This document shows, piece after piece, positions 1 to 33,568 of a DNA stretch of 33,568 nucleotides. The number at the start of each line of letters is the position of its first letter. Positions within the stretch are counted from its first letter, which is position 1. The notes under the pieces are model-generated. The model saw only the letters and a list, made by a program, of their open reading frames with translations, made no database searches and was not told the origin of the DNA. The position numbers were made by a program, and so were the translations under genes. Where the stretch lies: IMG/VR virus record IMGVR_UViG_2534681672_000004. One strand, written 5' to 3'. The DNA comes from a virus. Lineage: Duplodnaviria; Heunggongvirae; Uroviricota; Caudoviricetes.

Positions 1-723
1 ATGCTTTCCCACTCTTTTGAAGATCTTGCACAGGCCTTTCGGGTTTTATTAGAGTCTAACTGGTCACTACAGCGTTTGTTGGCTATTGATCGTGCTGAAG
101 CAATTGGCAATTTAGAATCGGGCCTGAATACACAACTTAATGCTTTTCATAATTTGTATGACAACATGCAAAGCAATGGATTAGAGCCTGACTGGTATTT
201 GAAACCTGAATTATTAATGATGCTTGTTATTCGAAATGCTCGGCATCATAACAAGGCCAACCGTATTAGAAGTATTTATAACTATCATCGTCAGTCCATG
301 AACGACCCTACACAGCAAAAAAACTATTTTTATGTGAATTTCCCGGCACCTCCAGAGGAAGAAGGTGGTGGCTATTTTGAGGTTCCTATCTCATGGGGAG
401 ATATTGATAAGATGCTTTCTCTGCCGCGTCAAGAATCGAGACTCCGACCAGAGGCCAAAGAACGTATACGTGATTATTTAGATGCTAATTCATTTGAAGC
501 ACAAGCAAACCAGCTAGGTCTCACAAAAGAAGATATATTCATCAACTATGTGCCGTTATCTATGAGCGCTGGAATCGCACTTCATCCATTCATCAAAGAT
601 AATATTTCGCTTAATGATGATTCGGTTGAAGCTAAAAGCTTTTTATCGCTTTTTGCTTCAACACATCCTGCGTTAACAAAGCAACATATCTGCAAGGCGA
701 TAGCTTTTTCATTACCAATCTAA
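1..723 (+). CDS. Hypothetical protein, AT-rich, no recognisable motif; may be 5'-truncated by the window edge
   Basis: 240-aa ORF ending at TAA 721-723, followed by a hairpin terminator. Composition is visibly more AT-rich than the adjacent phage late genes. Lies outside ogr, so either prophage-end cargo or flanking DNA. Confidence 0.45.
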   Translation: MLSHSFEDLAQAFRVLLESNWSLQRLLAIDRAEAIGNLESGLNTQLNAFHNLYDNMQSNGLEPDWYLKPELLMMLVIRNARHHNKANRIRSIYNYHRQSMNDPTQQKNYFYVNFPAPPEEEGGGYFEVPISWGDIDKMLSLPRQESRLRPEAKERIRDYLDANSFEAQANQLGLTKEDIFINYVPLSMSAGIALHPFIKDNISLNDDSVEAKSFLSLFASTHPALTKQHICKAIAFSLPI

Positions 724-7407: not shown

Positions 7408-7986
7408 TCAGGGTTCGCCGGTGGCTGACACAACGGGATTTGTCGCCGGAAATTTTTTATACAGCGTCGATATGCCCACATCAAAAATCAGTGCAACACG
7501 CTGTCGGGATTCTCCGGCCGCAATCAACCGGCCAGCCTGAGCCCATTCATCAGGCGTCAGCTTCGGCCTACGACCTCCGATCCTGCCTTGTGCCCGGGCT
7601 GCATCCAGCCCGGCGCGGGTTCGTTCGACGATTAACTCGCGTTCCATTTCTGCAAGAGCGCCCATGATGTGAAAGAAAAATCGCCCCATCGGGGTTGAGG
7701 TATCAATACTGTCGGTCAGGCTTCTGAAATTAACCCCTCGCTGGCGAAGCTCTTCAGTCATAGAGACAAGATGGCGCATGCTACGCCCGAGCCTGTCGAG
7801 CTTCCAGACAACGAGAGTATCACCGGCATTAAGTTGCCTGAGTGCGCGATTTAACCCTGGCCTGTTTGTCGATTTACCGCTGATTTTATCCTCGAAAATT
7901 AGCTCACATCCCGACCGTTCCAGCGCGTCACGCTGTAGCGCGGTATTTTGTTCATTTGTTGATACGCGCACATAGCCAACCTGCAT
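7408..7986 (-). CDS. Serine-recombinase DNA invertase (Hin/Gin/Cin/Pin family)
   Basis: N-terminus MQVGYVRVSTNEQNTALQRDAL... with catalytic-Ser motif; C-terminal HTH (GESRQRVALIFDVGISTLYKKF); GAGGGA RBS before ATG at 7986; sits beside an invertible tail-fibre segment. Confidence 0.9.
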   Translation of the reverse strand: MQVGYVRVSTNEQNTALQRDALERSGCELIFEDKISGKSTNRPGLNRALRQLNAGDTLVVWKLDRLGRSMRHLVSMTEELRQRGVNFRSLTDSIDTSTPMGRFFFHIMGALAEMERELIVERTRAGLDAARAQGRIGGRRPKLTPDEWAQAGRLIAAGESRQRVALIFDVGISTLYKKFPATNPVVSATGEP

Positions 7987-8040
7987 TTGTTTTCCCTCAT
8001 GCAAAAGCCCAAATGATGCCAGCTAGGGGGGAAAACTACA

Positions 8041-8066
8041 TTTTCTTAAACGTTGGTTTGGGAGAA
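8041..8066. other. hix/gix-like 26-bp recombination site (left boundary of invertible segment)
   Basis: TTTTCTTAAACG-TT-GGTTTGGGAGAA: two 12-bp half-sites around a 2-bp core; inverted copy of the site at 9888-9913. Confidence 0.8.
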
Positions 8067-8513
8067 GGTTCGGCATTACCCGTTGGTGTGCCTGTTCCGT
8101 GGCCTTCCGCCACTCCGCCAACAGGCTGGCTGAAATGCAACGGTGCGGCTTTTTCTGCTGAAGAATACCCGGAACTGGCAAAGGCTTACCCGACAAATAA
8201 ATTGCCTGATTTACGTGGTGAGTTCATTCGTGGCTGGGATGACGGAAGAGGAATAGATACTAACCGTAGCTTGCTTTCGTCACAGGGAGATGCCATTCGA
8301 AATATAATTGGTGCATTAGTGGATGTCAGGTTTAATACCTACCCTTCTGATTCTGGCGTTTTTACAACCAGCGTCATCGGAGATGCTTCATCTGATTCAA
8401 TTAAAGGTGGTTATGCAAAGCGAGTAACATTCGATGCTTCCAGAGTTGTTCCAACTGCAAACGAAAACCGACCTCGTAACATTGCCTTTAATTATATCGT
8501 GAGGGCTGCCTGA
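8055..8513 (+). CDS. Alternative tail-fibre C-terminal cassette (no own start; expressed only after inversion)
   Basis: Frame open from the hix core to a stop at 8513; encodes ...PVPWPSATPPTGWLKCNGAAFSAEEYPELAKAYP...NENRPRNIAFNYIVRAA, which I recall as close to Mu S/S' variable fibre ends. Confidence 0.75.
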   Translation, partial: GLGEGSALPVGVPVPWPSATPPTGWLKCNGAAFSAEEYPELAKAYPTNKLPDLRGEFIRGWDDGRGIDTNRSLLSSQGDAIRNIIGALVDVRFNTYPSDSGVFTTSVIGDASSDSIKGGYAKRVTFDASRVVPTANENRPRNIAFNYIVRAA

Positions 8514-9115
8514 TGAATAAAGCCGTATTAAATAACGAACTCATTGCCATAAAAGCGGGAGACATTACCATTTATAATTATGATGGTGAAACGCGGGAAT
8601 ATATTTCCACATCAACTGAATATCTTGCGGTTGGCGTCGGTATCCCGGCATGTTCTTGTTTAGATGCACCAGTTACACATAAAGCTGGTTATGCAATCTG
8701 CCGTTCTGCAGATTTTAACTCATGGGAATATGTGCCAGACCATCGCGGTGAAATCATCTATAGCACCGAAACAGGAGAATCGAAAGAAATCACAGCTCCG
8801 GGTGATTACCCTGAAAATACAACCACTATCGCCCCGTTAACGCCATATGATAAATGGGATGGTGAGAAATGGGTGACGGATACTGAGGCACAGCATAGTG
8901 CCGCAGTAGACGCGGCAGAAGCACAGCGCCAGTCACTGATTGATGCAGCAATGGCTTCCATTAGTCTGATTCAGCTGAAATTACAGGCCGGACGGAAGTT
9001 GACGCAGGCAGAAACAACCCGACTTAACGCCGTGCTGGATTACATTGACGCGGTGACGGCAACAGATACCAGCACCGCGCCGGATGTCATCTGGCCTGAA
9101 CTGCCGGAGGCGTAG
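8513..9115 (+). CDS. Tail-fibre assembly chaperone (partner of the alternative fibre C-terminus)
   Basis: 200-aa ORF starting at the stop of the alternative cassette; C-terminal LNAVLDYIDAVTATDTSTAPDVIWPELP motif typical of Tfa/gpG/U proteins. Confidence 0.85.
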   Translation: MNKAVLNNELIAIKAGDITIYNYDGETREYISTSTEYLAVGVGIPACSCLDAPVTHKAGYAICRSADFNSWEYVPDHRGEIIYSTETGESKEITAPGDYPENTTTIAPLTPYDKWDGEKWVTDTEAQHSAAVDAAEAQRQSLIDAAMASISLIQLKLQAGRKLTQAETTRLNAVLDYIDAVTATDTSTAPDVIWPELPEA

Positions 9116-9527
9116 GCCATTCAATATCTGGAGCACTGGAGGTATCGACCAGTTCCAGTGCGTCCAGATAATCCAGCCACAAATTATATTGCGCCAGTTC
9201 CTCACCTTTCAGGCGACCAATAGCCGCTTTACCAGGCCATTGTTTACTGTTCATATAATCGTTGGCCTGATTAATCAGTTGCTGCTTTTCCAGTTCGGCT
9301 GCAGCAATCTGTTCCTCATGTGTTGGTGGTGGAATTTCAGACCATGCAGGAAAACCATTTTCTCCAGCGATACGGATTTTTCCTTTCGGCGGTAATCCGG
9401 AAAACTCAATATACGCTTGCTCATCAACTTCAACAGCATCATCTGGCCATGAGTCAGCTTGAGTGTAATCCTCTTTCATCTCCAGCGGATAGAAAGAGTT
9501 TGTAGTCACGGAATATATGTAATTCAT
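9087..9527 (-). CDS. Tail-fibre assembly chaperone (partner of the currently expressed fibre C-terminus)
   Basis: 146-aa ORF directly downstream of H; C-terminal NLWLDYLDALELVDTSSAPDIEWPTPP motif typical of Tfa proteins; converges on and overlaps the other Tfa gene. Confidence 0.85.
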   Translation of the reverse strand: MNYIYSVTTNSFYPLEMKEDYTQADSWPDDAVEVDEQAYIEFSGLPPKGKIRIAGENGFPAWSEIPPPTHEEQIAAAELEKQQLINQANDYMNSKQWPGKAAIGRLKGEELAQYNLWLDYLDALELVDTSSAPDIEWPTPPAVQAR

Positions 9528-13083: not shown

Positions 13084-14427
13084 CTAGCTTGGGGTAACTG
13101 TAACCTGACGAGAAAAAACAACAGGCTCCTTCAATTGCTCACATATAATTTTAAAATTAATAACTCCAGAGCCAATCGTTAAGGGAATGATGACTATTTC
13201 CTCATACTCAACAGTTAAGCTCTGTAACACTTTTTTCGCACGCAACGTGATTTTATGGTCCTCTTTCATGACCCACTCATCTTGGTTAACTGTTCCTAAA
13301 TCAGCCATCCGTTTAATTATTGCTGGCACTTCGAAATGAGGTTTAGCCATTACCATCGATGTATCATCAAAAATACCCATCCTAAAATTTTCGAGTGACA
13401 TTATAGCACTGAGTCTTTTTTTATGCTTACTTATTGGGGACTCAGGGATTTTTAATTTCGGCTCTTTTATAAATAAGTCTTCATTAGAACCTTTAAGCAC
13501 TATTAGGAATTCAGGAAAATCAATCTCAACATAAACATTTGACGCAAAAGTCCTCCCATTATTTCTTAAAACGGGCTTCACTGTAATTGCATTGTTTTTG
13601 TAATTACAGTGCAATCTCATTTTTTTATTATATAAATCCACATCTTTATCAGTAGGCAGTGAAGAGTTATATGATTCAATCTCATCAATGGTGATAGTGT
13701 CCTTCAACTCAAGAGGTACCGCTTCCTTGCATAGTTGTGGAAGGTAATCCTGATAAGTCGACTCCACATCCACCGTCAAAGCTAAGTCATTATCAATCAT
13801 GCTCAGCTCTAATTGAGGTGCATCGCTATGTAATTGGCTTTCATATTCGCGGACTTTTTCCCTTAATTTTCTATTTTCATTAGATAGCTCAGCCAACTCG
13901 GCGGTAATCTCTTTAGATGCGACCTGGTCACCGCGCACCCATCCTATTCGTGGATTTCGTCGCATTACTTTTGGTAAGGCGATAGCAACCTTCGTCGCTA
14001 ACTCATCAATTGTCTCCCAAAAATCACACATTTTGTTAGCTTTAGCTTTTTCAATAAAAGCATTTAGTTGCTTTTCTTTTTGAGGGTCACTTTCTCGTTC
14101 ATGTGGTTTTGTTAAAACGTCCCTCCCTCTAATAAAAGCCAACACCGGTATATTTAATGATTTAGCATAGTTATATTCCATTTCAGTATAGCTAATACCA
14201 TCTTTAGAAACGGACCCATACTTATGCCCAATGATAATCACATAATAATCACTAGCATCAATAGTCTCCTTTATTATATCCCACTGCTCAGAGTCATCAG
14301 CGCTAAACATCTCCATGCCAACTGGAAAGTGGTATAAACTAAGGACCGTTTCTATGATTTTTTTGCGAGCATCAATTAAATCGACGTATGTAGAGCTCAC
14401 AAATACTTGATATTTTTTATTTTCCAT
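13084..14427 (-). CDS. AT-rich cargo protein with N-terminal DUF4062-like (TIR/SLOG-like Rossmann) motif, central coiled coil and uncharacterised C-terminal domain; candidate anti-phage/accessory gene
   Basis: Start at ATG 14427 (MENKKYQVFVSSTYVDLIDARKK...) with GAGGA RBS. The VF-SST..DL...R and YYVIIIGHKYG motifs match my recollection of DUF4062. Inserted between S and V, which are adjacent in P2; strongly AT-rich by eye. Confidence 0.65.
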   Translation of the reverse strand: MENKKYQVFVSSTYVDLIDARKKIIETVLSLYHFPVGMEMFSADDSEQWDIIKETIDASDYYVIIIGHKYGSVSKDGISYTEMEYNYAKSLNIPVLAFIRGRDVLTKPHERESDPQKEKQLNAFIEKAKANKMCDFWETIDELATKVAIALPKVMRRNPRIGWVRGDQVASKEITAELAELSNENRKLREKVREYESQLHSDAPQLELSMIDNDLALTVDVESTYQDYLPQLCKEAVPLELKDTITIDEIESYNSSLPTDKDVDLYNKKMRLHCNYKNNAITVKPVLRNNGRTFASNVYVEIDFPEFLIVLKGSNEDLFIKEPKLKIPESPISKHKKRLSAIMSLENFRMGIFDDTSMVMAKPHFEVPAIIKRMADLGTVNQDEWVMKEDHKITLRAKKVLQSLTVEYEEIVIIPLTIGSGVINFKIICEQLKEPVVFSRQVTVTPS

Positions 14428-14464
14428 AACATCCTCACTTGTATAGAAAATAAAATACATAAAA

Positions 14465-14932
14465 TCAATCAATAGATCTAGCCGCCTCAGCTAAAGAAAC
14501 CATAATTATGTCATGAATCATATTTTTTGATTCATGATCAAACCCGATAAGCATTCGGGCGTCATACTGTACCGGCGCACTGTTTCGCCCAGGCTTATCT
14601 TTGAGACCGTACTGATGCACATTCGCCATCCGTTGTACCTTGCCGGTAAATTCCACGACCGCCGAGTCATTCCCCGCTGTGGCTTTCATAAAGCGACTGG
14701 TGCGGAGCTTAGCGAACATTTCCCGCTTAACCCGGCCTGTTTTGGCTTTTACCGGCTGGCGTTTTCGGGCGGCGTAAGGTGTCCCGTCCGGGGCTTTCTG
14801 CATTTTAATCCGGCGCTGTTGACGGGCTCGCAGGGTCTTAGCGATATCTGCGGCCATTCTGCGACGGGCGGCAGGAGACAGCGCTGCTATCAGCCCCGTG
14901 AGCGTATCGTCAAAGGGTTTAAAGTCATTCAT
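14465..14932 (-). CDS. S: Tail completion protein gpS
   Basis: 155-aa ORF following R; size and order match P2 S. Confidence 0.85.
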   Translation of the reverse strand: MNDFKPFDDTLTGLIAALSPAARRRMAADIAKTLRARQQRRIKMQKAPDGTPYAARKRQPVKAKTGRVKREMFAKLRTSRFMKATAGNDSAVVEFTGKVQRMANVHQYGLKDKPGRNSAPVQYDARMLIGFDHESKNMIHDIIMVSLAEAARSID

Positions 14933-23296: not shown

Positions 23297-23983
23297 TTAT
23301 TGCTTATCTTGTGGTGGTGGAACCTCTTTTTCTAAATTATCTACATACTCTCTAATATTGAATGCTTTGTTTTTCCTTATTTCGGTAGTGTTAACCTTAC
23401 TAACACCATCACGAATGTTTTTATTTATGGTGTCTATTAATTTTTGTCTTTCTTGTTCTGTTTTTATTATTTCACTTAAGAATGACTTTGCGTTTCTTGA
23501 AATGTCCGTCTGTCTATTAATGAATAGTATCGCATACACTGAAAAAACCAAGCAAGTAGTCGTTAGTGCGGAATTAAAAAATACCCCATAATAAACATTA
23601 ACTTTTGTTATTGACGCTGATAACGTTAGTGATATCAAAAAAAACAAAATCAGGGTAAAAATATATGCAATGGTTACTTTGTTTTTAGTGGTGTCAAGAA
23701 TGTATGAAGTTCTTTGATCATCAAAGTAATCCTTTATCCTTGATGGAGTGTTTGCGGGGAGTTCTAACTCCTTTATTTTATCATCAGCATCAATTAGTCG
23801 CTTAAACATGAGGCTAATGATTACGGCGCTAAAGACAGAGATCCCCTTTGAAATTATAGGATCGAAATCAATTAAAAATGAGTATTTTGAATAAACAAAA
23901 ACAATAACAAAACCACATATAAGCCCAATTACAATTGAGCTTGCTATGTTTTTTGCATATGTTTGTAACGTATTGTTTATCAT
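23297..23983 (-). CDS. Four-TM membrane protein, second gene of an AT-rich two-gene cargo operon (candidate effector)
   Basis: Four hydrophobic helices followed by a charged C-terminal tail; ATG overlaps the upstream gene's TGA (ATGA coupling); strongly AT-rich. Confidence 0.7.
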   Translation of the reverse strand: MINNTLQTYAKNIASSIVIGLICGFVIVFVYSKYSFLIDFDPIISKGISVFSAVIISLMFKRLIDADDKIKELELPANTPSRIKDYFDDQRTSYILDTTKNKVTIAYIFTLILFFLISLTLSASITKVNVYYGVFFNSALTTTCLVFSVYAILFINRQTDISRNAKSFLSEIIKTEQERQKLIDTINKNIRDGVSKVNTTEIRKNKAFNIREYVDNLEKEVPPPQDKQ

Positions 23984-24963
23984 GGGTTAATTACTCCGGT
24001 GTCTAGTAAGCGCAATAACCATGAAATCATTTCTTCAGCAACGTTGTCAGCAATTAGCATTCCATTGCTGTATTCAATATTAACTGAATCCTTTAGTTGA
24101 ATCTCATCATTCCTGAGTATTCCTGCACCTTTTAACTCAATTGTTAAGCTTTCATCTCTATTATCAACCAAGCCTTGTGTAATTTTACGCAACATGTCTT
24201 GCTCAGACTCGCTTGCTTTATATTTATACCCAATGGAAATATCAATTGATAGAGATTCCCTGTCAGGTGAACCATCATTTAAAATGGTATTTTTCTTCAT
24301 TTCATTAATTCGATGTTCACCTACGAGCGTTTTTAATAGCTCACTAGCTGTATCATCAATATTATTTCCATAGTAGGTTAAAGGCAGCTTTAAGCTAACA
24401 TTTTTTACTATGTTACGTTTTAAAAAATCCGTATTTAGAGACAGGTTGTTTGCCTGTAAAACGATGAAGTTATCATCAGTAATAGATAGGTTGTCTTGTA
24501 GTATGAAATTTATATAATTTTCAATATCTTTTATTCTAATAGATCTGCTTTGCAGAATTATGAAGTGGTTCTTAATCACACCAATGTATGCAATGCTTTC
24601 TAAATACTCTCTAGCATTCCCACTTGATAAATTTAATGTCTCGTATGTTAAAGCTGTTTTAGCATAATCGCTAACAGAGAAAACAGGAATGCTACTACCC
24701 GGTTCAATATAGACAATTTCCGCAAAAAACATTCCATGAATTTCTTTGCTATTTGAAAGAACCATGTGGGCGTGAGCAGCGACATTACCATTATTATCTG
24801 GAACATCAGGGAAGAATAATCTATCAGCAACATTTGGAACCTTGATTTTCACAAGGTTTGCCAACCTATCTTGCAGGTTTGATGTTAAAAGAGCATCCTT
24901 TTTAGGAAGCATTATTGCATGGCGATAATGCAGCATTTTACTCTTATAATCTTGCGTTGCCAT
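23980..24963 (-). CDS. Hypothetical cytoplasmic protein, first gene of the AT-rich two-gene cargo operon (candidate sensor/enzyme)
   Basis: 327-aa ORF with GAGGGA RBS before ATG 24963; no motif I can recognise; between portal gene Q and cos. Confidence 0.7.
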   Translation of the reverse strand: MATQDYKSKMLHYRHAIMLPKKDALLTSNLQDRLANLVKIKVPNVADRLFFPDVPDNNGNVAAHAHMVLSNSKEIHGMFFAEIVYIEPGSSIPVFSVSDYAKTALTYETLNLSSGNAREYLESIAYIGVIKNHFIILQSRSIRIKDIENYINFILQDNLSITDDNFIVLQANNLSLNTDFLKRNIVKNVSLKLPLTYYGNNIDDTASELLKTLVGEHRINEMKKNTILNDGSPDRESLSIDISIGYKYKASESEQDMLRKITQGLVDNRDESLTIELKGAGILRNDEIQLKDSVNIEYSNGMLIADNVAEEMISWLLRLLDTGVINP

Positions 24964-29340: not shown

Positions 29341-29565
29341 TTAGGCTGCCACATAGCGGCAATTAAGGCCCTGAGCCAAGAGTCGAGCACGGAAGGCAAC
29401 CATATTGATACGCGCAGCACCACCGTCTTTTTTACGGGGCATCAGGAGGAGATCTCCATCAGCAACCATCTGTTTTACAGTGCGAATGCTGTAGCCGTAG
29501 CATTCAGCAAATTCGTCATAAGTCATGAGATCCGCGCCGGACGGGATTGCAATTTGTGGAGTCAT
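29341..29565 (-). CDS. apl: Apl/Cox-like excisionase and lytic-promoter regulator
   Basis: 74-aa HTH protein, first gene of the rightward-equivalent lytic operon, divergent from cI. Confidence 0.7.
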   Translation of the reverse strand: MTPQIAIPSGADLMTYDEFAECYGYSIRTVKQMVADGDLLLMPRKKDGGAARINMVAFRARLLAQGLNCRYVAA

Positions 29566-29690
29566 AAGTAATCATCTCCGGTTACTAGTTGGTTTGGTGC
29601 ATTGGCGTGCATTTTTAAATTCAAGCGAGAATCTTATCTCGAAAAAGCGAGATGTCAATTTGGATTTTCGCGATAACTCGGATTTTTAAG
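29566..29690. promoter_or_regulatory. Divergent pR/pL switch region with candidate CI operator repeats
   Basis: Repeated AAGCGAGA / TCTCG elements forming palindromes (GCGAGA-N5-TCTCG at 29625-29641; TCTCG-AAAAAG-CGAGA at 29637-29652) between apl and cI. Confidence 0.5.
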
Positions 29691-30269
29691 ATGAAATTGG
29701 ATGAGTTAGAGGGTGGAAAAGCAGTGCTGCAGCGCATCCTTGATGCGTATGGCTTCACCATGCAAAAACAACTCGGTGACTTGCATGAGCTGTCATCGGG
29801 AACAATCAGCACTTGGGTTCGGCGTAATTTTTTCCCCGGGGATGTTGTTGTTGCATGCGCTTTGGACACTGGGGTGTCTTTACGTTGGTTGGCAACAGGG
29901 AAGGGGAACAAGTTTGATGCAGACCATACTAATGGCGAAATGAAAACATTAGACCGATTGGATATTGTTGCAGGTAAGCTGCAGGAAAACGGTCATTGGA
30001 TTGTTGATGCTAACCTCTTTTCTACTGAGGCGACGCACCCCAATTACATAGTAAAAGGCCAGCAGTCCTGGATAGTTGATTTTGATATGACTGATATAGC
30101 AAATGGGCGATGGATGCTCAGTATCGACGGGGATCATGATGTCTATGACGTTGCAAGGATCCCGGGGAACAGAATAAAAGTCAGCAACGCTGATGCCGAT
30201 TTTCAATGCTCAGTTTCTGAGGTTAAGTGTATTGGCATGGTGCTGGTAAGCCTGACGAAATCTAGCTAA
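29691..30269 (+). CDS. cI: CI immunity repressor (186-type)
   Basis: Start MKLDELEGGKAVLQRILDAYGF...; N-terminal HTH pattern resembles 186 CI as recalled; first gene of the leftward-equivalent operon ahead of int. Confidence 0.75.
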   Translation: MKLDELEGGKAVLQRILDAYGFTMQKQLGDLHELSSGTISTWVRRNFFPGDVVVACALDTGVSLRWLATGKGNKFDADHTNGEMKTLDRLDIVAGKLQENGHWIVDANLFSTEATHPNYIVKGQQSWIVDFDMTDIANGRWMLSIDGDHDVYDVARIPGNRIKVSNADADFQCSVSEVKCIGMVLVSLTKSS

Positions 30270-30273
30270 CGAT

Positions 30274-30815
30274 ATGAGTGTTAAAAAACTGACATCGGGT
30301 GAATGGCTTTGTGATTTCCGCGTCGACGGGGCTGAAAGTCGCCGCGTGCGTAAGAAGTTTTCAACCAAAGGTGAAGCCGTTGCCTTCGAGCAGTATTACC
30401 GAGAAGAGGCACAAAATAAGCCGTGGATGGGTGAGAAGGAAGACCGTCGACGTTTGAGTGAACTGATTGAGCTGTGGCATAACCTCCATGGCCAGTCGCT
30501 CGCTGCCAGCAAATCGCGATTGGCCAAACTGCACATTGTTTGCCGGGGTCTTGGCGACCCAATCGCTACCCAGCTTACCGCCAAAGATTTCGCCCATTAT
30601 CGGGATAAACGTCTCAAGGGTGAAATCGACAATGGCTATCACGCAAATTCTGAAAAGTGGATTGCGAAACCTGTGACTGTGAACCGGGAACAACAGTACC
30701 TCGAAGCTGTTTTCAATGAGCTGAAGCGCTTGGGTGAGTGGAGTCTGCCAAATCCTCTCGAAGGTGTGCGAGTTTTCAAAGAAGCCGAAAAAGAAATGTC
30801 TTGGCTTACCCAGCC
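30274..30815 (+). pseudogene. int: Integrase, N-terminal fragment (interrupted by IS10)
   Basis: Reading frame ends ...KEMSWLTQP then a stop created inside the IS10 end; continues in frame at 32145 once IS10 and one target-duplication copy are removed. Confidence 0.85.
30807..30815. repeat. IS10 target-site duplication, left copy (TACCCAGCC)
   Basis: Identical 9 bp immediately flank both IS10 ends. Confidence 0.85.
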
Positions 30816-30860
30816 CTGATGAATCCCCTAATGATTTTGGTAAAAATCATTAAGTTAAGG

Positions 30861-30930
30861 TGGATACACATCTTGTCATATGATCAAATGGTTTCGCGAA
30901 AAATCAATAATCAGACAACAAGATGTGCGA
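30861..30930 (-). ncRNA. IS10 RNA-OUT antisense RNA (approximate position)
   Basis: Placed from established IS10 organisation (pOUT transcript antisense to the 5' end of tnp, near the outside end); coordinates not read from the sequence. Confidence 0.4.
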
Positions 30931-32131
30931 ACTCGATATTTTACACGACTCTCTTTACCAATTCTGCCCCGAATTACACTTAAAACGACTCAACAGCTTA
31001 ACGTTGGCTTGCCACGCATTACTTGACTGTAAAACTCTCACTCTTACCGAACTTGGCCGTAACCTGCCAACCAAAGCGAGAACAAAACATAACATCAAAC
31101 GAATCGACCGATTGTTAGGTAATCGTCACCTCCACAAAGAGCGACTCGCTGTATACCGTTGGCATGCTAGCTTTATCTGTTCGGGCAATACGATGCCCAT
31201 TGTACTTGTTGACTGGTCTGATATTCGTGAGCAAAAACGACTTATGGTATTGCGAGCTTCAGTCGCACTACACGGTCGTTCTGTTACTCTTTATGAGAAA
31301 GCGTTCCCGCTTTCAGAGCAATGTTCAAAGAAAGCTCATGACCAATTTCTAGCCGACCTTGCGAGCATTCTACCGAGTAACACCACACCGCTCATTGTCA
31401 GTGATGCTGGCTTTAAAGTGCCATGGTATAAATCCGTTGAGAAGCTGGGTTGGTACTGGTTAAGTCGAGTAAGAGGAAAAGTACAATATGCAGACCTAGG
31501 AGCGGAAAACTGGAAACCTATCAGCAACTTACATGATATGTCATCTAGTCACTCAAAGACTTTAGGCTATAAGAGGCTGACTAAAAGCAATCCAATCTCA
31601 TGCCAAATTCTATTGTATAAATCTCGCTCTAAAGGCCGAAAAAATCAGCGCTCGACACGGACTCATTGTCACCACCCGTCACCTAAAATCTACTCAGCGT
31701 CGGCAAAGGAGCCATGGGTTCTAGCAACTAACTTACCTGTTGAAATTCGAACACCCAAACAACTTGTTAATATCTATTCGAAGCGAATGCAGATTGAAGA
31801 AACCTTCCGAGACTTGAAAAGTCCTGCCTACGGACTAGGCCTACGCCATAGCCGAACGAGCAGCTCAGAGCGTTTTGATATCATGCTGCTAATCGCCCTG
31901 ATGCTTCAACTAACATGTTGGCTTGCGGGCGTTCATGCTCAGAAACAAGGTTGGGACAAGCACTTCCAGGCTAACACAGTCAGAAATCGAAACGTACTCT
32001 CAACAGTTCGCTTAGGCATGGAAGTTTTGCGGCATTCTGGCTACACAATAACAAGGGAAGACTTACTCGTGGCTGCAACCCTACTAGCTCAAAATTTATT
32101 CACACATGGTTACGCTTTGGGGAAATTATGA
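30923..32131 (+). CDS. tnp: IS10 transposase
   Basis: 402-aa protein MCELDILHDSLYQFCPELHLKRLNSLTLACHALLDCKTLTLTELGRNLPTKARTKHNIKRIDRLLGNRHL..., recognised as IS10 transposase from memory. Confidence 0.95.
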   Translation: MCELDILHDSLYQFCPELHLKRLNSLTLACHALLDCKTLTLTELGRNLPTKARTKHNIKRIDRLLGNRHLHKERLAVYRWHASFICSGNTMPIVLVDWSDIREQKRLMVLRASVALHGRSVTLYEKAFPLSEQCSKKAHDQFLADLASILPSNTTPLIVSDAGFKVPWYKSVEKLGWYWLSRVRGKVQYADLGAENWKPISNLHDMSSSHSKTLGYKRLTKSNPISCQILLYKSRSKGRKNQRSTRTHCHHPSPKIYSASAKEPWVLATNLPVEIRTPKQLVNIYSKRMQIEETFRDLKSPAYGLGLRHSRTSSSERFDIMLLIALMLQLTCWLAGVHAQKQGWDKHFQANTVRNRNVLSTVRLGMEVLRHSGYTITREDLLVAATLLAQNLFTHGYALGKL

Positions 32132-32144
32132 GGGGATCTCTCAG

Positions 32145-32153
32145 TACCCAGCC
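32145..32153. repeat. IS10 target-site duplication, right copy (TACCCAGCC)
   Basis: Identical to 30807-30815. Confidence 0.85.
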
Positions 32154-32649
32154 TCAAATTCGCGAAGTGCTCAATGCTTGTGAGTCATACGGGAAAATTT
32201 ATTTAACCCGTATCGTCAAAGTGTGCTTAGCGACTGGTGCTCGATGGAGCGAGGCCGAGCGTCTTACTCGTTCACAGCTTTCACCCCACAAGTTGACTTT
32301 CACTAAAACGAAGGGAAAGAAGAATCGTACAGTACCGATCCCTCGGTGGCTATATGACGAGTTGGCTCCTTTACAGGGAAAAATGTTCCACCCCTGCTAT
32401 CAGGAGTTCAAGAAAATGCTCGCTCTGACCGATATAGAGTTAGCTGAAGGGCAAAAAACGCATGTGTTACGTCATACATTTGCGAGTCACTTTATGATGA
32501 ATGGTGGGAACATTTTAGTACTGCAACGAATCTTGGGCCATTCTAACATTAGGGAAACCATGAGATACGCTCATTTTGCACCAGATCATTTAGAAGAAGC
32601 TGTAACTCTTAACCCTATTTCTAATTTAACAGGATTATATGATGAGTGA
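32145..32649 (+). pseudogene. int: Integrase, C-terminal catalytic fragment (tyrosine recombinase)
   Basis: Contains ARWSEAERL, HVLRHTFASH and RETMRYAHF (R...HxxR...Y catalytic residues); in frame with the N-terminal fragment across the IS10 junction (...TQP|QIREVL...). Confidence 0.85.
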
Positions 32650-33568
32650 GCCAACCATCGAAACACCTCCAAGAATGACCGAGGCCAAAGTCATTAGGGT
32701 ACGCACTCGTGGTTTTTATAATTTAGTTGAGATAGGTGCAGTCTTTCTAGTTGCAAATGTAATTTTTGCTACAGGGATATTAGACTCAACCTTTTATTAT
32801 TTATTTCCCAGTGCGAGAGCAGATCTTACACATTTGCCGAGCTTTATCAGGTCAATATTCGCAGTGTCATTTGTAATCGTTTACACCATTATCTATGGTG
32901 TGTCTCCAATCCAAAGAATGTTTATGAGAATTACAGGGAGTGATTCAGTCGACAAATCATCGATGTTTAATATTGTCGATATTATAAATGAGATAAAACT
33001 ACTCAAGAAGGCTCAAGAGGAAAGGGCTGCTGCTGATGAAGATGAATCTCTGGATTTTTATCTTAAAGGTTTGATTAATAGCTCTGAAGGTCTTGCGAAA
33101 AACATATATTCTCGCGGTAGTCTTTATTTATTAGTCGGTGTTTGTTTTGCAATAGTTGGATTAGGTTTCTTCTATTCTCAATCACATGTAATTGATGCTA
33201 AGGATGATGCGGTAACCAAGGTAATGTATCTTCTCCCTAATTTTGGCGTGTTGATTTTCTTGGAGTTAATCGCATTTTTCTTTTTGAAGCAATATCGGGT
33301 TACGATGGATGAGTTTCGCTATTACGAGGCAATAAAACGTTCACGTGAGGAAAGCTATGCCATTATAAAGCTTGTAATGGCTAGCCAGAAAGATATCGAT
33401 ATGATAGACCTTCTGGATAAAATTAATTTTAGCTCAAGAGTTGGAAAACTAGAATCAGGGCAGACTACTGAAATTATTGAAGCAAGAAAATTAGACAAAA
33501 ATGAACTTGAAACCTTAGTAAAGCTTACCGAGGCAGTTGCGGGTAAGATTGGACAGGGAAATAAGTAG
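32639..33568 (+). CDS. AT-rich four-TM membrane protein with a long C-terminal soluble region, overlapping the int 3' end; candidate lysogen-expressed accessory/exclusion gene
   Basis: 309-aa ORF whose ATGATG start overlaps the int stop by 11 nt; four hydrophobic helices; same strand as cI-int and sharply AT-rich. Confidence 0.6.
   Translation: MMSEPTIETPPRMTEAKVIRVRTRGFYNLVEIGAVFLVANVIFATGILDSTFYYLFPSARADLTHLPSFIRSIFAVSFVIVYTIIYGVSPIQRMFMRITGSDSVDKSSMFNIVDIINEIKLLKKAQEERAAADEDESLDFYLKGLINSSEGLAKNIYSRGSLYLLVGVCFAIVGLGFFYSQSHVIDAKDDAVTKVMYLLPNFGVLIFLELIAFFFLKQYRVTMDEFRYYEAIKRSREESYAIIKLVMASQKDIDMIDLLDKINFSSRVGKLESGQTTEIIEARKLDKNELETLVKLTEAVAGKIGQGNK

What the first reader, a model, noticed from the sequence alone, without database searches (positions are those of the whole stretch)
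32639..33568. Membrane protein gene translationally overlapping the integrase 3' end, in the lysogenic cI-int operon
The 309-aa AT-rich ORF starts 11 nt before the int stop on the same strand, so it would be expressed from the lysogenic promoter together with cI and int. That is the expression pattern expected of lysogenic-conversion or superinfection-exclusion genes. It has four hydrophobic helices separated by a ~100-residue charged region and a long soluble C-terminus. The last codons of int are AT-rich too, suggesting the cargo junction lies inside the int 3' end.
Basis: partly seen in the sequence, partly recalled or inferred. Interest (0 to 1): 0.6.

Follow-up and report, generated by a model that had tools for sequence, protein, structure and literature searches.

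The report
Integrase-coupled prophage membrane protein cassette
The last gene of this P2/186-like E. coli prophage encodes an uncharacterised four-helix inner-membrane protein, wedged between the integrase and the attachment site, that belongs to a large unnamed family found at prophage edges and in defence islands and is most likely an anti-phage protein, though no one has tested it.

Summary
A 309-aa ORF (32639..33568, 37% GC against 50.7% for the window) starts 11 nt before the int stop and has four hydrophobic helices. The TM2-TM3 loop is about 70 aa, not 100.

Comparison with the empty K-12 site puts the att core (AGCGTCTTAACTAA, the 3' end of rplS) about 113 nt downstream of the ORF stop. 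The gene is therefore phage cargo, not a host gene. It fills the whole int-attP interval.

In 12 or more related prophages the same family sits at the same place, always tightly coupled to int (gap -38..+2). The proteins are only 37-47% identical beside integrases that are 77-96% identical. The left break lies about 14 nt upstream of the ATG, inside the last int codons.

The family is large (2,436 clusters at 50% identity) and spans several phyla. It has no Pfam, NCBIfam or PADLOC assignment and no conserved partner gene. Outside P2-like phages it lies at prophage edges and near Lamassu, pAgo, DRT, Shedu and PARIS genes.

TM3, TM4 and the helix after TM4 are highly conserved; the N-terminal half is variable.

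Best reading: a lysogen-expressed, single-gene, membrane-acting anti-phage protein, Abi-like more likely than injection-blocking. Function is inferred only. In this window IS10 splits int upstream, so co-expression with cI is uncertain here.

The parts
32639..33568 (+). ORF309 coding sequence (alternative start 32642). It is a 4-TM inner-membrane protein of an unnamed family and the last gene before attP/attR.
32626..32649 (+). Left edge of the variable cassette. It covers the last ~8 codons of int, the AGGA Shine-Dalgarno (32631-32634), the ATGATG start and the int stop (32647-32649). Similarity to related prophages ends after ...AACCCTATTTCTAAT (32625).
32723..32785 (+). TM1 (aa 29-49), with invariant Glu31.
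32840..32902 (+). TM2 (aa 68-88), followed by invariant Pro90.
32903..33118 (+). Variable cytoplasmic linker (aa 89-133) and the helix that leads into TM3 (aa 134-160).
33119..33181 (+). TM3 (aa 161-181). Mean pairwise identity 0.54; invariant G167 and G174.
33227..33382 (+). TM4 (aa 197-217) plus the juxtamembrane helix (aa 218-248). This is the family signature P-x-F-G-[IV]-L-F-F-[IL]-E-x-I-A-F-F-F-L-K-Q-Y-R-x-x-M-D-E-F-R-Y-Y-E-x-x-K-R-x-R-E. Mean pairwise identity is 0.69 and 0.62.
32145..32649 (+). int 3' fragment (catalytic domain, Phage_integrase). 32145-32153 is the right copy of the IS10 target duplication.
30816..32144 (+). IS10 (IS4-family transposase 30923..32131) inserted in int, between cI and ORF309.
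30274..30815 (+). int 5' fragment (Int_N domain).
29652..30269 (+). 186-type CI repressor gene, first gene of the lysogenic transcription unit.
29474..29503 (+). Promoter-like site upstream of cI (TTTACA-18-TAGCAT). It is the only + strand candidate upstream of ORF309 outside the ORF itself.

Best explanation
ORF309 is a single-gene accessory cassette of a P2/186-like prophage that integrates into the 3' end of rplS.

**Expression (inferred).** It is made in the lysogen as the distal, translationally coupled gene of the cI-int transcript. In the integrated state that transcript would end at the displaced native rplS terminator.

**Topology (inferred from sequence).** The protein inserts in the inner membrane with N and C termini inside and both soluble regions in the cytoplasm.

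**Proposed mechanism (not shown).** The conserved TM3-TM4 hairpin and its cytoplasmic helical stalk form the effector, an oligomeric ion-leak or pore module. The fast-diverging N-terminal half (TM1-TM2 plus linker) keeps the effector closed and sets which incoming phage opens it. Opening collapses membrane potential and aborts infection, as lambda RexB or 2-TM SLATT-type effectors are thought to do, but here within a single polypeptide.

**What is shown.** Position inside the prophage, coupling to int, cassette boundaries, allelic divergence, family size, conservation pattern, and neighbourhoods rich in defence genes.

**What is inferred.** Expression in lysogens, topology, defence function, and the pore or abortive-infection mechanism.
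For: **Inside the prophage, filling the interval.**
- The att core AGCGTCTTAACTAA is defined against the K-12 empty site. ORF309 lies between int and attR, whose core starts about 113 nt after the ORF stop.
- Conserved tandem TGTCCACA-type repeats begin right after the stop.

**Conserved int>ORF arrangement.**
- The gap is -38..+2 in L050-L061.
- No promoter or strong terminator lies between cI and the ORF. The first strong terminator is the host rplS terminator just past attR.

**Arms-race-like pattern.**
- Integrases are 77-96% identical while the ORF is 37-47% identical.
- DNA identity falls from about 85% to about 40% at the ORF start.

**Retained in decayed prophages.**
- E2348/69.
- Citrobacter: an int stub plus the ORF.
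- Enterobacter: only the two att-proximal cargo genes.

**Family properties.**
- 2,436 clusters with a standalone architecture and no conserved partner.

**Neighbourhoods.**
- Distant members sit at prophage ends.
- They also sit near Lamassu LmuB, pAgo, Drt2, an RT-WYL protein, Shedu SduA, PARIS AriA, RmrA and PD-T7-4.

**Conservation pattern.**
- TM4 0.69, stalk 0.62 and TM3 0.54 mean pairwise identity, against 0.11-0.27 for the N-terminal half and the periplasmic loops.
- Invariant or near-invariant acidic residues lie in TM1 (E31) and TM4 (E209). This points to a function within the membrane rather than a passive anchor.

**Weak similarity to 2-TM effector modules.**
- PF20712 CyanoTRADDas_TM is hit by 8 of 79 members, best E 5e-4.
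- SLATT-annotated viral models appear in BFVD at E about 0.65-1.4.

**Literature.**
- The int-att interval of P2-like prophages is reported as a minor defence hotspot (PMC13586616).
- TM proteins in known systems are generally taken as suicide effectors (PMC9122126).
Against: - No experiment exists for any family member.
- There is no significant hit to any defence model (PADLOC), to Pfam or NCBIfam, or to any solved structure.
- The PF20712 matches are below the gathering score (15-18 against 24.3 bits) and lie in hydrophobic sequence. The SLATT structural matches are not significant.
- Defence-gene enrichment among neighbours was not compared with a background rate.
- A constitutively expressed standalone pore-former needs tight auto-inhibition, for which there is no evidence.
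- In this window IS10 separates the ORF from cI, so this copy may be poorly expressed.
Confidence: 0.45

Rival explanations
1. Superinfection-exclusion protein. ORF309 sits in the inner membrane and blocks genome entry of incoming phages, as P22 SieA, T4 Imm or HK97 gp15 do. The infected cell is not killed.
For: - Lysogenic-operon position and inner-membrane location.
- The periplasmic loops and the TM1-TM2 half are the most variable parts, as expected if they contact rapidly evolving phage ejection proteins.
- Allelic diversification occurs beside a conserved int.
Against: - The periplasmic loops are only about 15-18 residues. Nearly all soluble mass and the most conserved motifs face the cytoplasm.
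- The family spans Gram-negative, Gram-positive and Bacteroidota genomes and sits in chromosomal defence islands away from prophages. That is unusual for phage-specific entry blockers.
- tblastn found no similarity to any gene in 50,697 phage records, which include the classical sie/imm genes.
Confidence: 0.25
2. Non-defence accessory membrane protein. It would serve the prophage or host in another way, such as modulating host envelope physiology, lysis or induction timing, or prophage maintenance. Its neighbourhood with defence genes would simply reflect shared residence in mobile-DNA hotspots.
For: - No detectable homology to any characterised defence protein.
- Hotspots also carry non-defence cargo.
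- Only generic helical-hairpin structural matches were found.
Against: - The sharp allelic divergence at a fixed locus, retention in remnants and repeated proximity to bona fide defence systems in unrelated phyla fit conflict genes better than housekeeping accessories.
Confidence: 0.2
3. MotA/ExbB/ZorA-like stator subunit. The shared topology (TM1-TM2, cytoplasmic loop, conserved TM3-TM4, cytoplasmic tail) would reflect a 5:2-type ion-driven motor used for defence, as in Zorya.
For: - Same 4-TM topology, with TM3-TM4 the best conserved part and a conserved Pro in TM4.
- PomA, ExbB and MotA appear among the top 40 Foldseek PDB matches.
Against: - Those matches are not significant (E 0.6-1.9, TM-score 0.17-0.27).
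- No Pfam MotA_ExbB hit in any of 79 members.
- No MotB/ExbD/ZorB-like partner. In the P2-like prophages there is physically no room for one between int and attP.
Confidence: 0.05
4. Host chromosomal gene or spurious ORF outside the prophage.
For: It lies at the very end of the window, next to host gene yfiB in complete genomes.
Against: - Absent from the K-12 rplS-yfiB interval. The att core lies beyond it.
- Thousands of homologues conserve its length and motifs.
Confidence: 0.02

Closest known systems
Lambda RexB (with RexA), an abortive-infection ion channel in the cI operon
   Same: Four-TM inner-membrane protein encoded downstream of the repressor in the lysogenic transcript. It is the model for prophage-encoded membrane depolarisation on superinfection.
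   Different: - No sequence similarity (hhalign probability 0.2%).
- RexB is 144 aa and needs the cytoplasmic sensor RexA.
- ORF309 is 309 aa, has its own cytoplasmic regions and has no partner gene.
SLATT / CyanoTRADDas_TM (PF20712) 2-TM effector modules of conflict systems
   Same: - A conserved 2-TM hairpin followed by a conserved cytoplasmic helix.
- Weak recurrent profile hits over TM3-TM4 (8 of 79 members).
- SLATT-annotated viral models among BFVD matches.
- SLATT is a predicted pore-forming effector (PMC7159879).
   Different: - Hits are below the Pfam gathering score and the structural E-values are not significant.
- No associated nucleotide-signal-generating enzyme.
- There is an extra, variable TM1-TM2 half.
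The int-att defence hotspot of P2-like prophages (PMC13586616) and the cI-int hotspot of K139-like phages (PMC9122126)
   Same: [quoted passage not shown]
   Different: Those hotspots hold many unrelated systems. Here one protein family occupies the slot across many prophages as deeply diverged alleles, with exact single-gene boundaries and translational coupling to int.
PHROG 5157 (phage protein family of unknown function)
   Same: Significant match to the TM3-TM4-stalk region (E 3.8e-9, residues 155-287).
   Different: The match gives no functional information and covers only the conserved half.
Superinfection-exclusion membrane proteins (P22 SieA, T4 Imm, HK97 gp15)
   Same: Prophage- or phage-encoded inner-membrane proteins that protect against incoming phages (from established knowledge).
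   Different: - No detectable similarity.
- Much broader taxonomic spread.
- Mostly cytoplasmic soluble mass.

Membership tests
SLATT / CyanoTRADDas_TM (PF20712) 2-TM effector superfamily | Profile match at or above the Pfam gathering score | tested here: not met
   The window protein has no hit. 8 of 79 family members hit PF20712 at E 5e-4 to 1e-2, scoring 15-18 bits against a cutoff of 24.3.
SLATT / CyanoTRADDas_TM (PF20712) 2-TM effector superfamily | 2-TM hairpin followed by a conserved cytoplasmic helix | tested here: met
   TM3-TM4 (aa 161-217) plus helix 218-248 are the conserved core.
SLATT / CyanoTRADDas_TM (PF20712) 2-TM effector superfamily | Fusion or operon link to a signal-generating or sensor domain (SMODS, SLOG, TIR, TRADD-N, GTPase) | tested here: not met
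   The top 150 relatives are standalone proteins of 280-340 aa. There is no recurrent neighbour except integrase and repressor.
Lambda RexB | Sequence or profile similarity to RexB | tested here: not met
   hhalign of A1 against lambda RexB gave probability 0.2%.
Lambda RexB | Adjacent RexA-like sensor gene | tested here: not met
   int overlaps the ORF upstream and attP arm repeats follow the stop codon directly.
MotA/ExbB/TolQ/ZorA stator family | MotA_ExbB profile or significant structural match | tested here: not met
   No Pfam hit in 79 members. Foldseek gave E 0.6-1.9 and TM-score <=0.27 to PomA, ExbB and MotA.
MotA/ExbB/TolQ/ZorA stator family | Partner with a single TM carrying the conserved Asp (MotB/ExbD/ZorB) | tested here: not met
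   No conserved neighbour and no room in P2-like loci.
Known anti-phage defence systems (PADLOC-DB v2) | Significant match to any defence-protein model | tested here: not met
   Only spurious Cas5 hits at E about 1e-3 to 1e-4 and one 4TM-effector hit at E 0.007.
Defence genes by guilt-by-association | Recurrent location next to known defence systems or in mobile-element hotspots | tested here: inconclusive
   Strong PADLOC hits among 150 neighbours within three genes at 36 loci: LmuB, pAgo, Drt2, RT-WYL, SduA, AriA, RmrA, PD-T7-4. Prophage-edge contexts appear. No background control was run.
P2-like prophage int-att accessory slot (PMC13586616) | Located between int and the att site, inside the att-delimited element | tested here: met
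   The att core was mapped against the K-12 empty site. The same layout occurs in L050, L053 and L055-58.
PHROG 5157 | Significant profile match | tested here: met
   E 3.8e-9, residues 155-287 against profile positions 180-312 of 331.
Superinfection-exclusion proteins (SieA, Imm, gp15) | Block of phage DNA entry | not testable with these tools
   This needs infection assays. tblastn against 50,697 phage records found no relative.

The most novel reading that the evidence does not exclude
ORF309 represents a new, widespread family of self-contained membrane immunity proteins. A constant pore or ion-leak module (TM3-TM4-stalk) would be joined to a hypervariable specificity half. In one lineage of P2/186-like phages the gene has become a dedicated, exactly bounded allelic cassette, translationally coupled to integrase and abutting the attP arm. 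Phages that share an integrase and integration site would then differ in which competitors they exclude.
Probability: 0.35. Interest if true: 0.7.

Novelty: new variant of a known kind. Interest (0 to 1): 0.52.

Why it matters
- If the family is a defence protein, it adds a large, unannotated single-gene system to the known repertoire (about 2,400 clusters at 50% identity, several phyla). Current tools (PADLOC, Pfam, NCBIfam) miss it entirely.
- Its anatomy offers a simple model for how one membrane protein could both sense infection and kill or protect the cell.
- The int-coupled, exactly bounded cassette with deep allelic divergence shows how temperate phages swap immunity cargo without disturbing integration functions. 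It gives a natural allele series for specificity-swap experiments.
- It also illustrates that the int-att interval of P2-like phages, only recently noted as a minor hotspot, can hold a fixed family rather than random cargo.

Tried and rejected
**Homology and structure searches that gave nothing useful**
- Pfam, NCBIfam and PADLOC on the protein and on 79 relatives gave no valid family. Only sub-threshold PF20712 hits and spurious Cas5 hits appeared.
- A profile search against PDB sequences found nothing.
- The AF2 model has mean pLDDT 75.
  - Foldseek against PDB gave nothing below E 0.1.
  - BFVD gave a best E of 7e-3 to an unnamed phage protein.
- The afdb50 library was unavailable.
- hhalign against lambda RexB was negative.
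- megablast and tblastn against 50,697 phage records and tblastn against 72,556 plasmids gave no match.

**Partner-gene search**
- All-vs-all BLAST of neighbours at about 58 loci found only integrase and repressor as recurrent neighbours.
- Direct comparison of the flanking ORFs at the first loci was negative, except for the Enterobacter copy of ORF240.

**Functional pairing of ORF309 with ORF240 across attP**
- Rejected. ORF240 relatives sit on other P2-like contigs than those carrying the ORF309 family.
- Citrobacter remnants keep ORF309 without a called ORF240.

**Literature**
- Searches by RefSeq protein accessions found no paper.

**Host-gene reading**
- Rejected.
Full report
**1. The observation**

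The ORF is real and at the stated coordinates: 32639..33568 on the + strand, 309 aa, with an ATGATG start.
- The int reading frame ends with TGA at 32647-32649, so the overlap is 11 nt.
- An AGGA Shine-Dalgarno lies at 32631-32634.
- GC content is 37.0%, against 50.7% for the window.
- Hydropathy analysis finds four hydrophobic segments at about aa 29-49, 68-88, 161-181 and 197-217. The AlphaFold2 model (mean pLDDT 75) is all-helical and places them in helices.
- The charged region between TM2 and TM3 is about 70 residues rather than about 100. The C-terminal tail is about 90 residues.
- The distribution of Lys and Arg (5 in the N-tail, 10 in the TM2-TM3 loop, 14 in the C-tail, 1 in each short loop) predicts N-in/C-in topology with both soluble parts in the cytoplasm. 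This is an inference from the positive-inside rule.

One fact absent from the finding is that int is not intact in this window.
- An IS10 element (30816..32144, transposase 30923..32131) splits it.
- It has a 9-bp target duplication, TACCCAGCC.
- Thirteen complete E. coli genomes carry the same prophage end with an intact 345-aa int.
- None of 5,426 complete genomes shows this IS10 junction.

**2. Where the prophage ends**

Complete genomes place the element between rplS and yfiB.
- The empty K-12 site reads ...AAAGAGCGTCTTAACTAA|GATTTCGC... at the end of rplS.
- In lysogens the core AGCGTCTTAACTAA occurs twice. One copy is at the rplS stop (attL). The other starts about 113 nt downstream of the ORF309 stop and is followed by the K-12 sequence, including the native rplS terminator.
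- ORF309 is therefore inside the element.
- The window runs from the ATG of a 240-aa ORF next to attL to the stop of ORF309. On the excised circle the order would be cI > int > ORF309 > attP > ORF240, facing ogr and D.

Directly after the ORF309 stop come two TGTCCACA/TGCCCACA repeats with an 11-bp period. These are conserved in related prophages at a fixed distance from the core.
- A similar pair lies near attL.
- From memory, they resemble the P2 Int arm-type consensus TGTGGACA read on the other strand. That identification was not tested.
- Either way, the int-attP interval holds nothing but this gene.

**3. Expression signals**

In the intact copy no sigma-70-like site lies on the + strand between the candidate promoter upstream of cI and the inside of ORF309.
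- There is no convincing terminator until the displaced rplS terminator just beyond attR.
- Co-transcription with cI-int, and translational coupling to int, is therefore the simplest reading. It remains an inference.
- In this window transcripts would have to cross 1.33 kb of IS10.
- From established knowledge of IS10, its outward promoter faces the other way. This copy of ORF309 may be weakly expressed.

**4. What the protein is**

No Pfam, NCBIfam or PADLOC family matches it.
- PHROG 5157 (function unknown) matches residues 155-287 at E 3.8e-9.
- A first homology search gave 117 clusters, all 'hypothetical'.
- A profile search of 1.84 billion representatives gave 2,436 clusters at E<=1e-3, 1,089 at E<=1e-10 and 317 at E<=1e-30. 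The best 150 are almost all 280-340 aa, so the architecture is standalone with no fusions.
- Members occur in Gamma-, Beta-, Alpha- and Deltaproteobacteria, Bacteroidota, Acidobacteriota, Bacillus and Clostridium.

Conservation is very uneven.

| Region | Mean pairwise identity |
|---|---|
| TM4 | 0.69 |
| Helix after TM4 (aa 218-248) | 0.62 |
| TM3 | 0.54 |
| TM1, TM2, the linker and both periplasmic loops | 0.11-0.27 |

- The family signature is PxFG[IV]LFF[IL]ExIAFFFLKQYRxxMDEFRYYExxKRxRE.
- Glu31 in TM1 is invariant and Glu209 in TM4 is nearly invariant.

Structure and profile comparisons gave no specific relative.
- The PDB profile search was empty.
- Foldseek against PDB gave nothing below E 0.1.
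- The best BFVD match was an unnamed phage protein at E 7e-3.

Two weak leads point the same way.
- Eight of 79 members hit the 2-TM domain PF20712 (CyanoTRADDas_TM) over TM3-TM4, but below its cutoff.
- Two SLATT-annotated viral models appear at E of about 0.65-1.4.
- I treat these as leads, not as membership.
- Lambda RexB shows no similarity.

**5. Comparative genomics**

In at least 12 IMG/VR P2/186-like contigs the order repressor > int > family member recurs.
- The int-stop to ORF-start gap is -38 to +2 nt, and the gene is usually the last on the contig.
- Several of these contigs carry the same rplS core 115-125 nt after the ORF.
- The integrases are 77-96% identical to the E. coli one, but the family members are only 37-47% identical.
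- DNA identity runs at about 80-93% through int, then drops to about 40% at the ORF start. It rises to 65-82% only over the TM4/stalk motif.
- At nucleotide resolution, similarity ends after ...AATCCTATTTCTAAT, about 14 nt before the ATG (window ~32625). The last ~8 int codons therefore travel with the cassette.
- The right boundary is the stop codon.
It shows a single-gene cassette whose alleles are ancient and have been reshuffled relative to int.

The gene also survives prophage decay.
- E2348/69 keeps a truncated int plus the ORF.
- Citrobacter portucalensis keeps a 76-aa int stub plus a 50%-identical ORF at rplS-yfiB.
- Enterobacter hormaechei keeps only ORF240 (91% identical), a 136-bp int remnant and a 48%-identical family member.

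**6. Neighbourhoods elsewhere**

No partner gene recurs. Only integrase and repressor do.

| Genome | Context |
|---|---|
| Alcaligenes | Prophage edge beside the lysis cassette |
| Chromobacterium | Beside a lambda-type int/xis and a ScoMcrA-like gene |
| Variovorax | P2-like prophage, between the repressor and gpD |
| Flavobacterium | Next to a protein kinase, a reverse transcriptase, an OLD-type nuclease and a Mu-like repressor |
| Pseudomonas | Next to Lamassu and CTD7/MC3 genes |

- Among 150 neighbours within three genes at 36 loci outside P2-like prophages, strong PADLOC matches include LmuB, pAgo with its REase-TIR partner, Drt2, an RT-WYL protein, SduA, AriA, RmrA, PD-T7-4 and PDC-M55A.
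- Pfam's commonest hits among the same neighbours are integrase, HTH_3 and S24 peptidase.
- I ran no background control, so I call this suggestive rather than proven enrichment.
- A 2026 survey reports the int-att interval of P2-like prophages as a minor defence hotspot holding 3% of P2 systems (PMC13586616).
- Rousset et al. note that TM proteins in known systems are taken to be suicide effectors, and they describe a cI-int hotspot in K139-like phages (PMC9122126).

**7. Interpretation**

The best-supported explanation is a lysogen-expressed, single-gene, inner-membrane anti-phage protein.
- I favour an abortive-infection-like mechanism in which the conserved TM3-TM4-stalk forms an ion-leak or pore module. 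The variable N-terminal half would gate it and set specificity.
- The reasons are threefold. The conserved parts are in the membrane and cytoplasm. The periplasmic loops are tiny. The family crosses envelope types and lives in general defence islands.
- Confidence is about 0.45.
- An entry-blocking exclusion protein is the main rival (0.25).
- A non-defence accessory role cannot be excluded (0.2).
- A MotA/ExbB-like stator is disfavoured, with no significant match and no partner (0.05).
- A host gene or artefact is refuted.

**8. Novelty and score**

The kind, prophage cargo in a lysogenic operon that protects against other phages, is well known. So is the idea of hotspots next to int.
- New here are the protein family (large, unnamed and invisible to current defence finders) and its organisation as an exactly bounded, int-coupled allelic cassette.
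- I rate it 'new variant of a known kind', with interest 0.52.
- It is a well-delimited and easily testable candidate, but without functional evidence and in a field with many such candidates.

Noticed in passing
window 30816-32144 (target duplications 30807-30815 and 32145-32153): An IS10 element (IS4-family transposase) is inserted in the integrase gene and splits it into 30274..30815 and 32145..32649. The prophage is probably locked in. None of 5,426 complete E. coli genomes shares this junction.
   Followed up: yes
window 1-723 (+): A 240-aa AT-rich ORF (39% GC) with no Pfam, PADLOC or PDB match lies between attL (rplS) and ogr, on the other side of attP from ORF309. A 91%-identical copy survives with an ORF309 homologue in an Enterobacter hormaechei prophage remnant. 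Elsewhere it occurs on P2-like contigs that lack the ORF309 family, so it looks like independent cargo.
   Followed up: partly
window 13084-14472 (-): A 462-aa ORF sits among the tail/baseplate genes. It has an N-terminal DUF4062 domain (E 1.9e-28) and is homologous to KpSwz TIR/DUF4062 (PDB 10wc, E 3.5e-46). This is a Swarozyc-type NADase defence gene (bioRxiv 10.64898/2026.05.01.722283), not detected by PADLOC v2.
   Followed up: partly
window 23297-24963 (-): Two overlapping ORFs (228 aa and 327 aa) with no Pfam or PADLOC match lie between the portal gene and replication gene A. This is the classical P2 tin/old defence hotspot.
   Followed up: partly
L002 ~1903-1930 and L001 13577-13608 (outside the window): Integration swaps terminators. 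The phage brings its own stem-loop terminator for rplS just inside attL. The native rplS terminator ends up just after ORF309/attR, where it would end the cI-int-ORF309 transcript.
   Followed up: partly
L001 13425-13446 and L002 ~1939-1958 (just outside the window ends): Tandem TGTCCACA-type repeats with an 11-bp period lie on both sides of the att core and are conserved across related prophages. They are probably Int arm-type sites. The P arm starts at the first base after the ORF309 stop.
   Followed up: partly
window 7408-8004 (-) and flanks 7956-9527: A resolvase-type invertase (Resolvase + HTH_7) is flanked by oppositely oriented tail-fibre and tail-fibre-assembly gene segments. This suggests an invertible host-range switch.
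   Followed up: no
window 29474-29503 (+) and 29658-29631 (-): Face-to-face promoter-like sites lie between cI and the apl/cII side, as in the phage 186 pL/pR switch.
   Followed up: no
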